A DNA stretch of 38,283 nt from a virus: UHGV virus genome UHGV-1369770; one strand, given 5' to 3'. The first letter of the stretch is position 1. Each line of letters opens with the position of its first letter. Both the position numbers and the translations under genes were made by a program. This document shows, piece by piece, positions 3,581-33,537 of this stretch. The notes under the pieces were generated by a model. The model saw only the letters and a program-made list of their open reading frames with translations. It was not told the DNA's origin and searched no databases.

Positions 3581-4323
3581 TACCTTTGCCCCCAGTTAAT
3601 ATTTTTTACTTGATCATTTGTATTGTTTTTATTGATCTCTATTTCATAGTTACTTTTCCACTTATTTAACTGTCTCATTGCTTCTGGATACTGTTTATCT
3701 GTCATACTGTCTAATGTTTGTGCACCAACATGTTGCAACAATCCATTTCTAACAACTTGCATATCGCTTGAGCTTAGTTCCGCTACTTTTCTTATTAAAT
3801 CGTTCATCTCTGATATTTGTTTACCATTAACCAAATTTATTGGTTCTTTAGCATCAAGCTTCTTTTGAAATGAATCAGGATCATCTTTATCTGTTGCAAT
3901 ATTAAAAAATTTCAATAAAAAATATTTTTCTGCATAAGTTAATGCTTTACCTACACCCTTCTCGCCAGCAATATCAACACCTTGTGCATACCACTTTGAT
4001 TCCAAAAAATCTTCTGGATTATCAATATTAATCCAGCGCATAGTCATCTCAAGTTCAGTAAAATATGTTATTCTTTGTTTCTGTTCTGTCTGTTTCGTGT
4101 ACTTATTGTATTGATTTATAATCTCTATCTGGTCCTTAACTTTATGGCCTGTAATTGCTGGTTGTAATAACAATCCCATTTCATTAATTTTTGAATGTAA
4201 AGCTCCTAGGACATCACTTGACCCAACATAATTAAATTGACTTCCTGATTGTTCTTTTTTTAAATAAGATACTTTTTTTCTTACTTCTGCTAATCTTTGA
4301 TAAACATTTAGTTGTTCAGCCAT
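3580..4323 (-). CDS. erf: ERF-family single-strand annealing protein (essential recombination function)
   Basis: N-terminus MAEQLNVYQRLAEVRKKVSYLKKEQSGSQFNYVGSSDVLGALHSKINEMGL matches the conserved ERF core. A GAGGT SD lies upstream. Confidence 0.75.
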   Translation of the reverse strand: MAEQLNVYQRLAEVRKKVSYLKKEQSGSQFNYVGSSDVLGALHSKINEMGLLLQPAITGHKVKDQIEIINQYNKYTKQTEQKQRITYFTELEMTMRWINIDNPEDFLESKWYAQGVDIAGEKGVGKALTYAEKYFLLKFFNIATDKDDPDSFQKKLDAKEPINLVNGKQISEMNDLIRKVAELSSSDMQVVRNGLLQHVGAQTLDSMTDKQYPEAMRQLNKWKSNYEIEINKNNTNDQVKNINWGQR

Positions 4324-10324: not shown

Positions 10325-10398
10325 TGGACCATACAGGACTCGAACCTGTGACCTAACCGTTATGAGCGGTTGGCTTTAACCAACTGAGCTAATGGTCC
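10325..10398 (-). tRNA. tRNA-Met (anticodon CAT), 74 nt, no encoded CCA
   Basis: Folded by eye: acceptor GGACCAT/ATGGTCC, D arm GCTC..AAGC, anticodon stem AACCG/CGGTT with loop CTCATAA, T arm ACAGG TTCGAGT CCTGT. The 3' end faces the integrase, as in the 3'-end tRNA insertion pattern. Confidence 0.85.
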
Positions 10399-29966: not shown

Positions 29967-31256
29967 CTAGGCGATATAGGTTTTATAAAAGTAATTATTA
30001 CCATACCTTGCTTCATCAAGTGCATGATTATATTTATCTACGGGCAATCCATTGTCATTTCTCACATACATAGAGATTTCTTTTTCAAAATTATAGTGGT
30101 CAAATTCTTCTCCACATTCTAAAACTATAAATTGGCCACTTATCATGGTGTTTTGTAGTCGTTCTATTCCAACCTCTATCTTTAAACCATTACTTGAAAC
30201 TTTATCGGAGCTATTGTTATCAGCTTTATCTGTAATAATCCCTATTAAGTCAAGCTCAGAACGTAACGTTTTACAGGCAGGATCGACAAAGAAATAATTC
30301 CAGTGTGGCAAATGGTTCCATTTTGTATAACACCACTCAACAAACTGTTTAATCTCTTTTGCATAAATTGACATCGCTTTTGTTTCTCCCGTATCCGTTC
30401 CACTATGATAGTAGTTTGCTAAACGATACAGATAAAATTTCCCAGCATAGAAGGTGACAACCCAAAATGCACAGGTAGTTGCATCAGCTTGGCCACCATC
30501 AGCAGTAAAAAACGTTTCAATGATGTTTCCTTTTATTTCGGTTGCCTTGTTGTTCTTACCGAACATCGAGTAAATAACACCTTGTGGTAGCACTCTATGA
30601 CCATACCAGTCACGGTCTAAAAGATATTCGCTACTTGATAACTCATCGTATAACTGCTGCTTTCTTGATTCACTTAAGATTGGATTATCATCTGGTGTCC
30701 AATGACGAAATAAAAAACGTCCTGATTTCTCAAAACGTTCTAACAATTCTAAATTAGGGTGATTCGGTGCTGGCGGATTCTGTTCGCCTAAATGATAGCG
30801 CCATTCTGCAGCAAAAGTACGTCTAAAGCACTCATTAATGAAATCTTTATGCAGCAAGTTAAATTCTAAGAAAGTAACTGAGCCTAACGACATACCCGTA
30901 ATAGCACCAACCGAATTGATTTTGCCGCCGCCTTTGTAATAAATCTTTTTTTCTCCGTTAGGTGCATATAAAAGCAAATGGTCCCCATGCTCATCATGTC
31001 GAATATCTGAAACACCATCAAAGATATGCATTAAGCCTAAACCGTCACCGTCCATAAACATTCGGAAAGCTTGTTCTTGATTATAAGCAGTCACAAGATG
31101 GTTCTGGTCTGGTGAGCGTAAATAGAAGTCTGCCATTTTAAATATATCACTGGTGGTTTTTCCGCTACGAGGAGTGCCTTCGTTTAGTTCAAAGGTTACT
31201 TTACTTGTATCATAATTGATATTTGCCACTTGCTTATCACTAAAATTAATTGCCAT
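29967..31256 (-). CDS. terL: terminase large subunit
   Basis: Walker A GTPRSGKTT near the N-terminus. 429 aa. Overlaps terS by 11 nt. Confidence 0.9.
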   Translation of the reverse strand: MAINFSDKQVANINYDTSKVTFELNEGTPRSGKTTSDIFKMADFYLRSPDQNHLVTAYNQEQAFRMFMDGDGLGLMHIFDGVSDIRHDEHGDHLLLYAPNGEKKIYYKGGGKINSVGAITGMSLGSVTFLEFNLLHKDFINECFRRTFAAEWRYHLGEQNPPAPNHPNLELLERFEKSGRFLFRHWTPDDNPILSESRKQQLYDELSSSEYLLDRDWYGHRVLPQGVIYSMFGKNNKATEIKGNIIETFFTADGGQADATTCAFWVVTFYAGKFYLYRLANYYHSGTDTGETKAMSIYAKEIKQFVEWCYTKWNHLPHWNYFFVDPACKTLRSELDLIGIITDKADNNSSDKVSSNGLKIEVGIERLQNTMISGQFIVLECGEEFDHYNFEKEISMYVRNDNGLPVDKYNHALDEARYGNNYFYKTYIA

Positions 31257-32091
31257 CGCTCACACCTCGTGATTTTACTTCTAACAAGGCTTCTAGCAAT
31301 TCATTAGCTTTACCTCCAGCGGTTAACTTATCAGCCTTATTCGTAAGTATTTTCGCTTCTGCTTGAGCTTTTTCAGTTTGCGCTTGTTTTAATTCATCAG
31401 TAGCAATATACTTCATCAACTCACTCATAGCCTTTTGCTTATCGTAAAGCTTAACTGATACACCGTCTTTACCTTTTTTAACTTCCTGAATCAATGTACC
31501 GTCAACCTCGTTCGAATCTTTAAGAGAGACATTTGAAACTTTGTATGTTTTTACTTCGCCTGTTTCTTCGTCTATAACCTCTTCACCATTAATATCTTTA
31601 AACGGATATTCATCATAACCAAATTCTGTAAAATCGGTAATATCGGCAAATGCTTGCTTAACATACTCTTGTATCAAGTCTTTAATATCCACAAACACAT
31701 CTTGTTGCAACTCTGCTTTTAAACGGTGCAACTCTTTTTTTATGCGATCTTTTGCTAGCAACCTAATGCTATTGGCTCTAGCTGAATTATAGCCACATCC
31801 GTATGCTTGTTGATATGCCTTAGTGGCGTTAAAATGCTGTAAATAAAATAAACAGAACATTTTCTGTTGCTCTGTTAAAGCATCATTCTCTATAACGGGT
31901 TGCGACTCTTTTTTGTGTGCAACCTTTTTCTTTTTGGTTGCAACCTCTTTAGGAGTCGCGTTCCATTTGCGAGATTTCCAAGACTTCACGGTGTTAATAG
32001 ATACATCGTATTTATCTGCTATATCTTTATACTTCATACCATTTTTATAATTCTCATATGCTAAGTCCCATTTCTGCACACCCAACGCCAC
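31246..32091 (-). CDS. terS: terminase small subunit (HTH N-terminus)
   Basis: N-terminal HTH (KYKDIADKYDVSINTVKSWKSRKW). 281 aa directly upstream of terL. The start is ambiguous (GTG 32091 overlapping the AGGAGG SD, or TTG 32085). Confidence 0.75.
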   Translation of the reverse strand: MALGVQKWDLAYENYKNGMKYKDIADKYDVSINTVKSWKSRKWNATPKEVATKKKKVAHKKESQPVIENDALTEQQKMFCLFYLQHFNATKAYQQAYGCGYNSARANSIRLLAKDRIKKELHRLKAELQQDVFVDIKDLIQEYVKQAFADITDFTEFGYDEYPFKDINGEEVIDEETGEVKTYKVSNVSLKDSNEVDGTLIQEVKKGKDGVSVKLYDKQKAMSELMKYIATDELKQAQTEKAQAEAKILTNKADKLTAGGKANELLEALLEVKSRGVSDGN

Positions 32092-32227
32092 CTCCTAATT
32101 AATTTTATGTAAATGTGCGACAGATACATTAATACCTGTTATACTCTTTATATGGTAGTACTCCTTTTTTAAAAGCTTGAGTTCAGAGATTACAATCTAT
32201 CTTAATTTTGACACTAACGCTACCTAG

Positions 32228-32257
32228 CCACTAGACCCATAATCTAGTGGTTTTTTT
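32228..32257 (+). terminator. plus-strand rho-independent terminator
   Basis: CCACTAGA cccataa TCTAGTGG followed by TTTTTTT. Confidence 0.6.
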
Positions 32258-32263
32258 ACGTAC

Positions 32264-32296
32264 AAAAAAAGACCACTCATTTTTATTGAGTAGTCT
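32264..32296 (-). terminator. minus-strand rho-independent terminator separating the ncRNA/early region from terS
   Basis: Minus strand: GACTACTCA AUAAAAA UGAGUGGUC followed by UUUUUUU. Confidence 0.6.
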
Positions 32297-32468
32297 AAAG
32301 ATTTATATTAGACTGCCTAGCCAATCTAACACTTATTTAACAATACTAGGTTGCTAGCCACTTTATCCTGTTTCCGCAGGCTGGCTAATTCTGAAAGGAG
32401 GTGAACCGATCGTTAAAGTAAGAAACATTTATTGACGATTTTTTTATTTAAGTAGCTATGCTACCTAT

Positions 32469-32540
32469 TGGCGTGACAGGATTCGAACCCGCATCTTATC
32501 TCACACGAAGTAAGTTGCATTACCACAATGCTACACGCCA
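32469..32540 (-). ncRNA. tRNA-like element (possible degenerate tRNA-Arg, UCG anticodon)
   Basis: Minus strand: TGGCGTG TA GCAT TGTGGTA ATGC ... GCGGG TTCGAAT CCTGT CACGCCA. Perfect 7-bp acceptor stem, D arm with GG, canonical T loop. The anticodon arm is weak (4 bp plus mismatch, loop CTTCGTG) and the T stem has two G.U pairs. Confidence 0.4.
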
Positions 32541-33117
32541 AACCAGAAGGAGCGACCTTCTAGCAATTGCTAATAAATCAAATTAACCTTTACACACTCT
32601 CGTCAGAATGTTTTCCCTTCAGGACGTAGCTTTCGCAGACTTTCACGGCTAAAATGATTATGTCACTGGCAAGGATTTGCACCTTGTATGGTCTATATTC
32701 CACCACAGTGACCAATCAATCAAACACCAGCAAAAACAATTGATTAAGTTTATCCTAAACGTACCTAGCTGCTACTCTATGAGTTTAGGAATTGCTCTCG
32801 TGCATAAGCAGCTGCCGCAGAGTTCTGGTTAGTGTCATATCTTCAGATGCTGGGCTAAAATACCGCGCCTAGCCTCGCTTACTACGCTTTACCTTGCGTA
32901 AGGTAGTTACTGCATCTCTAGTAACTATTTGTCACTTGCAAACCTGTAGAAAAAAAGAGAAGGCTCTTCACCTCCCCTCTAAGAGAACGTATCAGTTTGC
33001 GAGTGATAGTGTGATCAGTGTTAGCAACGAGATAATATTTATTTTTGATTTCCTTACACTTCTCACACTACTAATTTACCATGTGAAATAACCTCGATAG
33101 TGCACAAATAGTGCAAA
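32541..33117 (-). ncRNA. candidate large structured non-coding RNA (about 580 nt, ROOL/GOLLD-like) between the ArpU-like gene and the tRNA-like element
   Basis: No ORF of 60 aa or more on the operon strand. GC visibly elevated (about 45-50% against about 35% flanking). Many local hairpins, e.g. TAGTTACT-loop-AGTAACTA, GTCACTG...CAGTGAC, CAAGG...CCTTG, and AGAAGG tcgct CCTTCT directly abutting the tRNA-like 5' end. Confidence 0.35.
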
Positions 33118-33537
33118 TTATATATCTAAATTTAATTCTTTTGCGATTTCTTCAAAAAATATTCTTTGTAATTCGAAGGCCTTTCTTCTACTACAAAATA
33201 TTTTTCCTTGATCAATTAATCCTTGCATAGTGAATCTAGGCCGTTTTTTAAAATGAAGCTCTTGAATGATAGTGATGGTATCCTCACACGATTCACTAAG
33301 CACTTTGTCAATGATGCGTTTATTCCGTTCTAAGCTTGCTAGCCGCCTGTCTTGTTCAATCGTAATAAGTAAATTGGCAGCAGCTTCATTATTTCCGTGT
33401 GATCCTTTAATGCCACTGTTCAAATCACTTTCTCTAAATGGATAACGTAATTCTTCTTCGCGTTGCCGAATATAGTCATCGGTTTTATAATAGTCTCCTA
33501 AGATATCTTTGATATAGTTAAATGTTGATGTCCGCAA
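33118..33537 (-). CDS. late-gene transcriptional activator (ArpU/RinA-like family)
   Basis: 139 aa basic protein at the canonical position upstream of terS in Firmicute siphoviruses. Family assignment from memory. Confidence 0.5.
   Translation of the reverse strand: MRTSTFNYIKDILGDYYKTDDYIRQREEELRYPFRESDLNSGIKGSHGNNEAAANLLITIEQDRRLASLERNKRIIDKVLSESCEDTITIIQELHFKKRPRFTMQGLIDQGKIFCSRRKAFELQRIFFEEIAKELNLDI

What the first reader, a model, noticed from the sequence alone, without database searches (positions are those of the whole stretch)
32469..33117. About 580-nt GC-rich non-coding block fused to a tRNA-like element upstream of terS: candidate ROOL/GOLLD-class large structured RNA
A 1 kb gap between the ArpU-like gene and terS contains no credible ORF on the operon strand and has visibly higher GC than all flanking coding DNA. 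It carries numerous local helices and ends (in the minus-strand sense) in a 72-nt tRNA-shaped element. That element has a perfect acceptor stem, D and T arms but a degenerate anticodon arm. Back-to-back terminators at 32228-32296 isolate the block from terS. Large ornate RNAs of the ROOL and GOLLD classes are about 500-800 nt, occur in prophages of low-GC Firmicutes, are characteristically found next to tRNA genes, and are induced during lytic growth. This block matches them in size, location and tRNA linkage. If it is neither, it is an unclassified structured RNA in the same niche.
Basis: partly seen in the sequence, partly recalled or inferred. Interest (0 to 1): 0.7.

Follow-up and report, generated by a model that had tools for sequence, protein, structure and literature searches.

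The report
Modular phage late-leader RNA, ROOL slot
The non-coding stretch before the packaging genes of this Enterococcus phage is not a ROOL or GOLLD RNA but a patchwork of late promoter, terminator, a 219-base optional insert sitting exactly where sister phages carry ROOL, a stripped-down copy of a widespread unannotated tRNA-shaped RNA, and a weak tRNA-Arg.

Summary
The gap between the late-activator gene and terS is real, ORF-free and conserved at 80-88% in Enterococcus faecalis phages. It is not ROOL or GOLLD: Rfam finds only the tRNA, even at E<=10. It is also not one large RNA but a set of modules: activator repeats plus an extended -10 promoter; a terminator (t1); a 219-nt cassette (32931-32713); a 52-nt tRNA-like element (32712-32661); a 119-nt spacer; a tRNA-Arg-like gene with a drifting anticodon stem. 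The cassette shows no sign of an ornate fold (MFE z=+0.79, SCI 0.49, one compensatory pair) and has no homologues outside E. faecalis phages. However, its slot is empty in 5 sister loci, holds this cassette in 65, and holds genuine ROOL (263 bits) in others. The 52-mer is an insert-less member of a tRNA-Leu-derived scaffold family. In that family the acceptor, D and T stems covary strongly and the anticodon arm is replaced by a hypervariable 40-270-nt insert. It is widespread in Firmicutes phages and absent from Rfam 15. The likely role of the tRNA shapes is as RNase P/Z processing points in the late leader; this is inferred.

The parts
33118..33537 (-). Late-gene activator gene (Ltr superfamily; Alt-like/phrog_36 type, not a close ArpU homologue)
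   Evidence: phrog_36 at 4e-15, phrog_2198 'Alt-like' at 5e-6, Pfam DUF722 weak. No significant BLASTP match to phiFL2A ArpU.
33097..33115 (-). Two direct repeats TGCACTAT, 11 bp apart: putative binding site of the activator
   Evidence: These are the only two exact copies in the window. They sit in the same position as the three 7-nt repeats of phiFL2A, which bind ArpU and are required for terS expression (PMC3753634; alignment).
33073..33081 (-). Extended -10 (TGgTAAATT) of the inferred late promoter; transcription start about 33066
   Evidence: Read from the sequence. Relatives have TGcTAATAT at a similar distance after their own, different repeats. This is an inference.
32949..32980 (-). 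Intrinsic terminator t1 (11-bp hairpin plus U7)
   Evidence: Terminator scan and fold. Variation in relatives keeps the pairing. Strand-specific SCI is 0.82 against 0.27. A working terminator was shown in the phiFL2A intergenic region.
32932..32953 (-). Conserved anchor TTTTCTACAGGTTTGCAAGTGA, the left border of the cassette slot
   Evidence: It is shared by loci whose slot is empty, holds this cassette or holds ROOL.
32713..32931 (-). 219-nt optional cassette with a ~130-nt invariant core; function unknown
   Evidence: Found only in E. faecalis phages. No Rfam hit. z=+0.79, SCI 0.49, one compensatory pair, no conserved ORF, no similarity to ROOL.
32661..32712 (-). 52-nt insert-less member of the tRNA-like scaffold family (7-bp acceptor stem, damaged D arm, T arm with UGCAAAU loop)
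   Evidence: Scaffold model R1 scores 50.8 bits, E about 1e-12. Folds alone with z=-2.62.
32541..32660 (-). 119-nt spacer with small hairpins, including AGAAGG-UCGCU-CCUUCU just before the tRNA
   Evidence: Conserved with the scaffold/tRNA module; replaced by a different sequence in phiFL3.
32468..32540 (-). tRNA-Arg(UCG)-like gene with a weak anticodon stem (type A body)
   Evidence: Rfam 46 bits; ARAGORN call.
32263..32296 (-). Intrinsic terminator t2, back-to-back with a plus-strand terminator at 32226-32252
   Evidence: Terminator scan. Fold z=-5.3.
31246..32091 (-). terS, the first late gene
   Evidence: Pfam Terminase_2 at 6.5e-36 and phrog_2606 at 5e-83.

Best explanation
The interval is the modular 5' leader of the late operon of an E. 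faecalis temperate phage, not a single large RNA. The late activator binds the two direct repeats just after its own gene and fires an extended -10 promoter. The transcript then runs through, in order: terminator t1; a 219-nt accessory cassette; a 52-nt tRNA-shaped element; a spacer; a tRNA-Arg-like gene; terminator t2; and terS. The two tRNA-shaped modules most likely act as processing points. RNase P would cut at their 5' ends (G32712 and U32540) and RNase Z or exonucleases would trim their 3' ends. That would release the cassette RNA, the mini-scaffold, the spacer and the tRNA as separate molecules and detach them from the terS mRNA. The cassette is an optional, exchangeable module. Sister phages have nothing, this cassette or ROOL at the same point. 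Its own function is unknown. It behaves like a sequence-constrained, modestly structured accessory RNA. What is shown: the anatomy, the conservation, the slot polymorphism, the scaffold fold, and (for phiFL2A, in the literature) activator binding at the repeats, terS expression across this region, and a working terminator. What is inferred: the exact promoter, the RNase P/Z processing, and that the cassette acts as an RNA.
For: Module borders and conservation. The repeats are unique in the window and phased 11 bp apart. In phiFL2A, ArpU binds its repeats, the repeats are needed for terS-reporter expression across the ~800-nt intergenic region, and a terminator blocks read-through without ArpU (PMC3753634). 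Terminators. Slot states, measured as distance from anchor to scaffold: 10-15 nt (5 loci), 219-230 nt (65 loci), 607 nt with ROOL. ROOL scores 260-263 bits and ends 11-14 nt before the scaffold; 7 of 61 ROOL loci show this arrangement. Scaffold fold: 91 of 93 motif-anchored loci have at least 6 of 7 acceptor pairs, with 45 different 5' strands; 97.9% of cells pair, all 7 acceptor pairs change on both sides, and 0 of 500 shuffles reach the observed score; the D stem covaries. The window copy scores 50.8 bits. Scaffolds sit in tRNA arrays with tRNA-like spacing. The block is shared by phages with different activators and different TerS families. In Listeria, rliG occupies the same activator-terS gap next to the scaffold, is transcribed, and is dispensable for virions. 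From established knowledge: bacterial RNase P accepts acceptor-stem/T-arm minihelices.
Against: There are no transcript or end-mapping data for this phage. The promoter call rests on consensus and analogy. A late promoter upstream of two good terminators needs read-through or antitermination, which is unexplained. Alternatively the RNA island could have its own promoter, since Listeria rliG is expressed in lysogeny. The window's scaffold copy has lost the D-loop GG, has an A.C at the sixth T-stem pair and has no insert, so it may be a relic rather than a working processing site. The cassette's near-invariance is not explained by a processing model.
Confidence: 0.55

Rival explanations
1. The block is a member of the ROOL or GOLLD class of large ornate RNAs.
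For: Prophage context, linkage to a tRNA, and raised GC.
Against: No ROOL or GOLLD hit at gathering score or at E<=10, while the same tool finds ROOL at 260-263 bits in sister loci. No sequence similarity to ROOL. The cassette is 219 nt. z=+0.79 and SCI 0.49.
Confidence: 0.02
2. The 219-nt cassette is an independent, functional non-coding RNA that stands in for ROOL. It would be a new RNA class with the same biological role, released from the leader and acting in trans.
For: It sits in exactly the same slot as ROOL, between the same anchor and scaffold. It has a ~130-nt invariant core across phages with different flanking modules. GC is raised. One compensatory pair and several G.U-only changes fit the operon strand. 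It has no ORF.
Against: It has no stable fold and no real covariation. Its distribution is very narrow. The slot can be empty, so neither occupant is essential. Sharing a position does not show a shared function.
Confidence: 0.25
3. The cassette is functionless filler: a recombination scar or a recently spread hitch-hiking sequence. Its invariance would then reflect recent common descent rather than selection.
For: The slot is empty in some phages. All known copies come from one host species and are very similar. There is no fold signal.
Against: The 3' 130 nt are invariant, while the 5' 90 nt of the same cassette, the terminator, the tRNA and the neighbouring genes all vary within the same set of phages. 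That unevenness points to constraint.
Confidence: 0.13
4. The block works at the DNA level, as a pac/cos packaging site, an activator operator or a recombination site.
For: It lies just upstream of terS, where cos sites often lie. Its primary sequence is strongly conserved.
Against: It is shared by phages with unrelated TerS families (phrog_2606 versus phrog_309), by phiFL3 where a methylase module follows it, and by phages with different activators and repeats. It is absent from sister phages with an empty or ROOL-filled slot.
Confidence: 0.04
5. The block hides a small protein gene or a decayed gene, for example an HNH endonuclease pseudogene.
For: A 38-42-codon stop-free stretch persists on the opposite strand in all variants.
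Against: Every frame on both strands stays open across the invariant core, so persistence says nothing. There is no start codon with a ribosome-binding site. Indels of 1, 2, 3 and 10 nt occur among variants. No homologue has an intact gene here.
Confidence: 0.01

Closest known systems
ROOL RNA (Rfam RF03087)
   Same: Carried by phages of Lactobacillales next to tRNA-type genes. In sister Enterococcus phages it occupies the very same slot, between the same anchor and the same tRNA-like scaffold.
   Different: No covariance-model match and no sequence similarity. The cassette is 219 nt against about 580 nt. It has no multi-junction or pseudoknot fold supported by energy or covariation.
ArpU/RinA (Ltr) late-promoter region of phage phiFL2A (Quiles-Puchalt et al. 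2013, PMC3753634)
   Same: Same layout: direct repeats right after the activator gene, a terminator, and a long intergenic region before terS. phiFL2A carries this same block at 88% identity.
   Different: The window has a different activator type and different repeats: 2 x TGCACTAT instead of 3 x TTGGCGG. The paper did not describe the RNA modules inside the intergenic region.
MALAT1/mascRNA and MHV68 tRNA-miRNA (TMER) units: tRNA-like structures used as RNase P/Z processing signals
   Same: This is the proposed logic: a tRNA-shaped module placed directly 3' of another RNA defines that RNA's 3' end and is itself released. Here it sits 11-14 nt after ROOL and immediately after the cassette.
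   Different: Those systems are eukaryotic or herpesviral and share no homology with this one. Processing here is inferred, not shown.
tmRNA tRNA-like domain and bacterial Y RNA-like YrlA
   Same: An acceptor/T-arm/D-loop tRNA mimic in which the anticodon arm is replaced by another RNA domain.
   Different: ARAGORN makes no tmRNA call and Rfam gives no match. There is no G3.U70 and no tag ORF. YrlA has the opposite topology, with a closed acceptor stem and its ends at the anticodon side (from memory). The D arm here is of tRNA-Leu type and the T loop is UGCAAAU.
Listeria sRNA rliG (Rfam RF02415) in A118-like prophages
   Same: It lies in the same gap between the ArpU-like activator gene and terS, directly upstream of a full-size scaffold. 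It is transcribed, has no known function and is dispensable for virions.
   Different: It has no sequence similarity to the window's cassette. The Rfam rliG model overlaps the scaffold's first 42 nt in L046.

Membership tests
ROOL RNA (RF03087) | Match to the Rfam covariance model at or above 99.1 bits | tested here: not met
   No hit at gathering score on the whole window or at E<=10 on 32100-33250. Positive controls score 260.7 and 263.1 bits in L027, L041 and L107.
ROOL RNA (RF03087) | An RNA of about 580 nt with six multistem junctions and pseudoknots supported by covariation | tested here: not met
   The cassette is 219 nt. MFE z=+0.79, SCI 0.49 on both strands, RNAalifold covariation term -0.87 with one compensatory pair.
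ROOL RNA (RF03087) | Prophage or phage context next to tRNA genes | tested here: met
   It lies in a phage late leader, next to a tRNA-like scaffold and a tRNA-Arg-like gene, in the same slot as ROOL in sister phages.
GOLLD RNA | Match to the Rfam covariance model (conserved 3' domain) | tested here: not met
   No hit (all 4227 Rfam 15 families searched).
tRNA (RF00005), for 32540..32468 | Cloverleaf scoring at or above 29 bits and an ARAGORN call | tested here: met
   46 bits; ARAGORN calls tRNA-Arg(UCG).
tRNA (RF00005), for 32540..32468 | Anticodon stem-loop kept by selection (needed for a decoding tRNA) | tested here: inconclusive
   The window has 4 of 5 pairs and U at position 37. Relatives of the same body type have 3 of 5 pairs because only the 5' strand changes. 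Type C has no anticodon stem. Type B is a good tRNA-Glu/Lys.
tRNA-like scaffold family (defined here; model R1) | 7-bp acceptor stem closing the element | tested here: met
   GUCACUG/CAGUGAC gives 7 of 7 pairs.
tRNA-like scaffold family (defined here; model R1) | 6-bp T stem with a UGCAAAU loop, stacked on the acceptor stem | tested here: met
   The loop and 5 pairs are identical to the family consensus. The sixth pair is A.C in the window; it is G-C or A-U in close relatives.
tRNA-like scaffold family (defined here; model R1) | tRNA-Leu-type D arm, GCGG-AAUAGGUAGA-CGC | tested here: not met
   The window has GUGG-AAUAUAGA-CCAU. The loop GG is deleted and the model's stem pairs are broken, although a 4-bp substitute stem can form.
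tRNA-like scaffold family (defined here; model R1) | Variable insert of 40-270 nt in place of the anticodon arm | tested here: not met
   The window has no insert. 51 of 59 loci in the window's group are insert-less, and 8 carry four unrelated inserts.
tRNA-like scaffold family (defined here; model R1) | Overall covariance-model score | tested here: met
   50.8 bits, E about 1e-12. The next best hit in the window scores 8.6 bits.
Ltr/ArpU-dependent late promoter | Direct repeats immediately after the activator gene, bound by the activator | tested here: inconclusive
   Two unique repeats phased 11 bp apart are present at the right place. Binding cannot be tested with these tools; it is shown only for phiFL2A's different repeats.

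The most novel reading that the evidence does not exclude
The tRNA-Leu-derived scaffold may be a new class of phage RNA carrier. In this reading, tRNA enzymes recognise it (RNase P/Z, the CCA-adding enzyme, perhaps LeuRS, which ignores the anticodon), and it displays hypervariable inserts. It would also form the 3' end of co-transcribed partner RNAs such as ROOL, rliG and the window's cassette. The 219-nt cassette would then be a functional alternative to ROOL, giving natural empty/cassette/ROOL phage sets with which to find out what ROOL does.
Probability: 0.15. Interest if true: 0.8.

Novelty: new variant of a known kind. Interest (0 to 1): 0.5.

Why it matters
ROOL and GOLLD are abundant phage RNAs that form nanocages, and their function is still unknown. 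This locus contributes three things.

- **Context for ROOL.** In Enterococcus phages ROOL sits in the leader of the late operon controlled by an ArpU-type activator. It sits as an optional cassette that nature has also left empty or filled with an unrelated 219-nt sequence. That offers near-isogenic comparisons.
- **A testable route to ROOL's 3' end.** ROOL there is followed within 11-14 nt by a tRNA-shaped element, which suggests RNase P cleavage forms its 3' end.
- **A new RNA family.** The tRNA-shaped element belongs to a widespread family in Firmicutes phages, with strong covariation and a hypervariable insert. It is missing from Rfam 15 and is not called by tRNA finders.

For annotation, the result warns against calling such gaps a 'large structured RNA' from GC content and tRNA linkage alone.

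Tried and rejected
- **Rfam search** at gathering score and at E<=10 gave only tRNA. The weak hits (FMN 15.7 bits, TLS-PK5, SpF41 and others) are noise.
- **ROOL or rliG remnant:** only 8-9-mers match by blastn-short, and nhmmer finds nothing.
- **More diverse homologues of the cassette:** nhmmer over 180 loci, a gapped-pattern scan of the genome collection (0 hits) and of metagenomes (13 hits, 11 identical to known variants). Diversity stayed too low for a real covariation test.
- **RNAalifold structure of the cassette:** weak. It includes an implausible long-range helix that competes with the scaffold's acceptor stem. The apparent A-U/G-C covariation in the hairpin before the scaffold proved consistent with two independently varying sites (A-U 17, A.C 8, G-C 4, G.U 3). 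My motif-anchored registers for the terminator, H3 and H5 were off by one base and were not used.
- **Small ORFs:** uninformative.
- **A sigma-70 promoter between t1 and the cassette** (TTGCAA-N15/17-TAGRGA) was considered. The would-be -10 is poor, is not conserved in loci with a ROOL-filled or empty slot, and was not found by the scan.
- **Is ROOL followed by the scaffold everywhere?** No. It holds in only 7 of 61 ROOL loci.
- **Literature searches** for the scaffold, by keywords and by its literal sequence, found nothing relevant.
- **Correction:** an early note gave the scaffold coordinates as 32703..32652. The correct coordinates are 32712..32661.
Full report
**1. The observation**

All genes in this part of the window run on the minus strand. 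The activator gene spans 33537..33118 and terS spans 32091..31246 (Terminase_2, 6.5e-36; phrog_2606, 5e-83), followed by terL. The 1026 nt between the activator gene and terS hold only a 41-aa TTG ORF on the operon strand.

GC reaches 0.45 at 32700-32999, against 0.30-0.40 in the flanks. The first ~170 nt after the activator gene are AT-rich.

Rfam and ARAGORN both find a tRNA at 32540..32468: 46 bits, tRNA-Arg(UCG). Terminator-like hairpins are enriched, 6 found against 0.8 expected. They include t1 at 32980..32954 and the back-to-back pair at 32296..32270 (minus) and 32226-32252 (plus).

They do not form one 580-nt unit.

**2. Not ROOL or GOLLD**

cmscan against all 4227 Rfam 15 families returns only tRNA for this region. 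That holds at gathering score on the whole window and at E<=10 on 32100-33250. The test works, because the same tool finds ROOL at 260.7 and 263.1 bits in sister loci L027, L041 and L107.

**3. Relatives and experimental anchor**

Sequence from 33006 to 32410 is 80-88% identical in E. faecalis phages phiFL2A/B, phiFL3A/B, IME197, VEsP-1, Efs 1-1-1 and others. There it is unannotated, or only the tRNA is annotated.

The block always follows the late-activator gene, while the downstream genes vary: a different TerS family in phiFL2A, a methylase module in phiFL3.

The relatives have three TTGGCGG repeats 11 bp apart right after arpU, followed by TGcTAATAT. The window has two TGCACTAT repeats 11 bp apart, the only exact copies in the window, followed by TGgTAAATT. 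The window's activator is a different Ltr type (phrog_36, Alt-like) with no significant similarity to phiFL2A ArpU.

Quiles-Puchalt et al. 2013 (PMC3753634) showed the following for phiFL2A:
- ArpU binds the three repeats.
- The repeats are required for expression of a terS reporter placed after the whole intergenic region.
- That region contains a terminator that blocks read-through when ArpU is absent.

So in a phage that carries this same block, the block lies within the activator-dependent late transcription unit.

**4. Anatomy (minus strand)**

| Coordinates | Module |
|---|---|
| 33115-33097 | Activator repeats |
| 33081-33073 | Extended -10 |
| 32980-32949 | Terminator t1 |
| 32953-32932 | Conserved anchor TTTTCTACAGGTTTGCAAGTGA |
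| 32931-32713 | 219-nt cassette |
| 32712-32661 | 52-nt tRNA-like element |
| 32660-32541 | Spacer |
| 32540-32468 | tRNA-Arg-like gene |
| 32296-32263 | Terminator t2 |
| from 32091 | terS |

**5. The second tRNA-like element and its family**

VEsP-1 has a ~150-nt insertion in the middle of the block. The sequence flanking that insertion looked like a tRNA without an anticodon arm.

A scan of IMG/VR with its T arm (CAAGGTGCAAATCCTTG) returned more than 119 loci. In them the layout is: [7 nt]-UG-GCGG-AAUAGGUAGA-CGC-[40-270 nt, unrelated between groups]-(G/A/C)CAAGG-UGCAAAU-CCUUG(C/U/G)-[7-nt complement].

I then tested the fold without selecting on acceptor pairing, anchoring only on the D-arm and T-arm motifs.
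- 91 of 93 loci have at least 6 of 7 acceptor pairs, with 45 different 5' strands. Shuffled partners reach that level in 11.5% of cases.
- On an insert-excised alignment, 97.9% of cells pair and all 7 acceptor pairs show changes on both sides. The covariation score is 0.613 against 0.140 for shuffles (0 of 500 reach it). Slid registers drop to 33-48% paired.
- The D stem covaries: GCG/CGC, ACG/CGU, GUG/CAC, AUG/CAU, GAG/CUC, CCG/CGG.
- The sixth T-stem pair covaries: G-C, A-U, C-G, G.U.

ARAGORN and Rfam do not call these elements. The D-arm half alone matches true tRNA-Leu genes.

The scaffold occurs in temperate and 150-kb lytic Enterococcus phages and in phages of Listeria, Lactobacillus, Brochothrix, Bacillus, Weissella and Leuconostoc. 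It is never annotated as an RNA. About 29 species-representative genomes of Firmicutes carry the complete scaffold at 46-65 bits. I found no description of it in the held literature.

A covariance model of the scaffold (R1) hits the window once, at 32712..32661, with 50.8 bits and E about 1e-12. That copy has no insert, lacks the D-loop GG and has an A.C at the sixth T-stem pair. It still folds alone into acceptor stem, short D-like stem and T arm (z=-2.62).

Among 59 loci of the window's phage group with identical flanks, 51 are insert-less (six micro-variants). Eight carry four unrelated inserts together with an intact D arm.

**6. The cassette slot**

I measured the distance from the post-terminator anchor to the scaffold.
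- 10-15 nt in 5 loci: the slot is empty.
- 219-230 nt in 65 loci: the slot holds the window's cassette.
- 607 nt in L041 and L107: the interval is a full ROOL (263 bits).

L041 matches block-bearing phages through the terminator and the anchor. Homology then breaks, and ROOL begins 12 nt later and ends 11 nt before the scaffold. Seven of 61 ROOL loci fetched with ROOL core motifs show this direct adjacency, and about eight more have a scaffold within 0.15-4 kb on the same strand.

In Listeria phages the scaffold directly follows rliG and rli62. There rliG lies in the gap between llgA (ArpU-like) and terS, is transcribed even in lysogeny, and is dispensable for virions (PMC7397523). Other Enterococcus-type loci add rli28-like and RatA-like RNAs downstream. 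The gap is therefore a variable island of non-coding RNA genes.

**7. Is the cassette a structured RNA?**

The evidence is weak.
- The 234-nt core has MFE z=+0.79 on the operon strand and -1.51 on the other strand.
- SCI is 0.49 on both strands. Terminator t1, by contrast, is clearly strand-specific (0.82 against 0.27).
- RNAalifold gives a covariation term of -0.87.
- A motif-anchored table shows one true compensatory change (UACGC/GCGUA to UAUGC/GCAUA, with one G.U intermediate) and single G.U-compatible transitions in three other helices. The apparent covariation in the hairpin before the scaffold fits two independently varying sites.
- No frame is distinguished as coding.
- There is no similarity to ROOL, rliG or rli62.
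- Homologues exist only in E. faecalis phages and are nearly identical to one another.

What does stand out is a ~130-nt core that is invariant across phages whose activators, repeats, tRNA type and TerS all differ. I cannot explain that invariance.

**8. The tRNA-Arg-like gene**

Three body types share one acceptor stem and T arm at this position.
- Type B is a good tRNA, with anticodon UUC (Glu) or UUU (Lys), scoring 58-63 bits.
- Type A is the window's type. Its 5' anticodon-stem strand drifts (ACUUA, ACUGA) against a fixed UGAGA, leaving 3-4 of 5 pairs. It scores 37-46 bits.
- Type C has no anticodon stem (31.9 bits).

Selection here keeps the acceptor/T/D shape more strictly than it keeps decoding ability.

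**9. Mechanism**

Shown:
- the modular anatomy;
- the slot polymorphism;
- the scaffold fold;
- for phiFL2A, activator binding at the repeats, terS expression across this region, and a working terminator.

Inferred:
- the late promoter at 33081-33073;
- RNase P cleavage at 32712 and 32540 and 3' trimming, which would cut the leader into a cassette RNA, a mini-scaffold, a spacer and a tRNA, and would uncouple them from the terS mRNA. By the same logic this would form ROOL's 3' end in sister phages.

Open:
- how transcription passes t1 and t2;
- whether the island also has its own promoter;
- what the cassette and the scaffold inserts do.

**10. Verdict**

ROOL/GOLLD membership is rejected. The fallback of 'an unclassified RNA in the same niche' is right about the niche and unproven about structure.

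The most valuable results are two. The first is the ROOL/cassette/empty slot in the activator-controlled late leader. The second is the widespread, unannotated tRNA-Leu-derived scaffold family, of which the window carries a stripped-down copy.

Noticed in passing
window 33073-33115, 32949-32980 and 32263-32296 (minus strand): The inferred activator-dependent late promoter lies upstream of two good intrinsic terminators (t1 and t2). Yet in phiFL2A the same layout drives a terS reporter only when ArpU is present (PMC3753634). Either Ltr/ArpU-dependent transcription resists termination, as with lambda Q, or the terminators leak.
   Followed up: partly
window 32392-32406 (minus strand): The leader RNA reads GGUUCACCUCCUUUC, a copy of the anti-Shine-Dalgarno 3' end of 16S rRNA. 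It is complementary to the terS ribosome-binding site AGGAGGUG about 300 nt downstream. IME197 and phiFL3 have CCCUCCU at the same place. This may be an element that masks the ribosome-binding site.
   Followed up: no
window 10325-10398 (minus strand): The phage has a second, good tRNA gene: tRNA-Met(CAU), 65 bits.
   Followed up: no
L003/L006 versus L051/L133/L101, the tRNA at the position of the window's tRNA-Arg: One tRNA body appears with anticodon UUC (Glu) in some phages and UUU (Lys) in others. The two differ by two bases in the anticodon arm, so this is an anticodon shift on a fixed body.
   Followed up: partly
L125 234-413; L163 1820-1999 and 1685-1772: Matches to Rfam rli28 (143-145 bits) and to the RatA antitoxin RNA (55 bits) lie just downstream of the scaffold/tRNA module in sister phages. 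The island can therefore also carry RNAs like those of type I toxin-antitoxin systems.
   Followed up: no
L046 3553-3738 against 3697-3847; L078 935-1096 against about 1101-1231: The Rfam rliG model overlaps the first 42 nt of the tRNA-like scaffold in L046 and ends 4 nt before it in L078. The curated rliG family seems to include part of the scaffold.
   Followed up: partly
L167 1853-2121 and L041 7230-7514: The same scaffold insert of about 240 nt occurs in a cassette-bearing phage and in a ROOL-bearing phage. Inserts and slot occupants therefore assort independently.
   Followed up: partly
L051 11553 and 12222: The post-terminator anchor occurs twice, with about 650 nt of unknown content between the copies. 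This may be a fourth state of the slot.
   Followed up: no
scaffold family: The T stem has 6 bp, so the acceptor stem plus T stem form a 13-bp stack (12 bp in normal tRNAs). The T loop has G where tRNAs have pseudouridine 55. 62% of members have A as discriminator base and two encode ACCA. The invariant tRNA-Leu-type D arm raises the question of LeuRS recognition.
   Followed up: no
window 32949-32980 (minus strand): The terminator t1 hairpin pairs a perfect Shine-Dalgarno-like string (GGAGGUGA) with CCUUCUC/CCUCC, and this is conserved in all variants. No start codon follows it.
   Followed up: no
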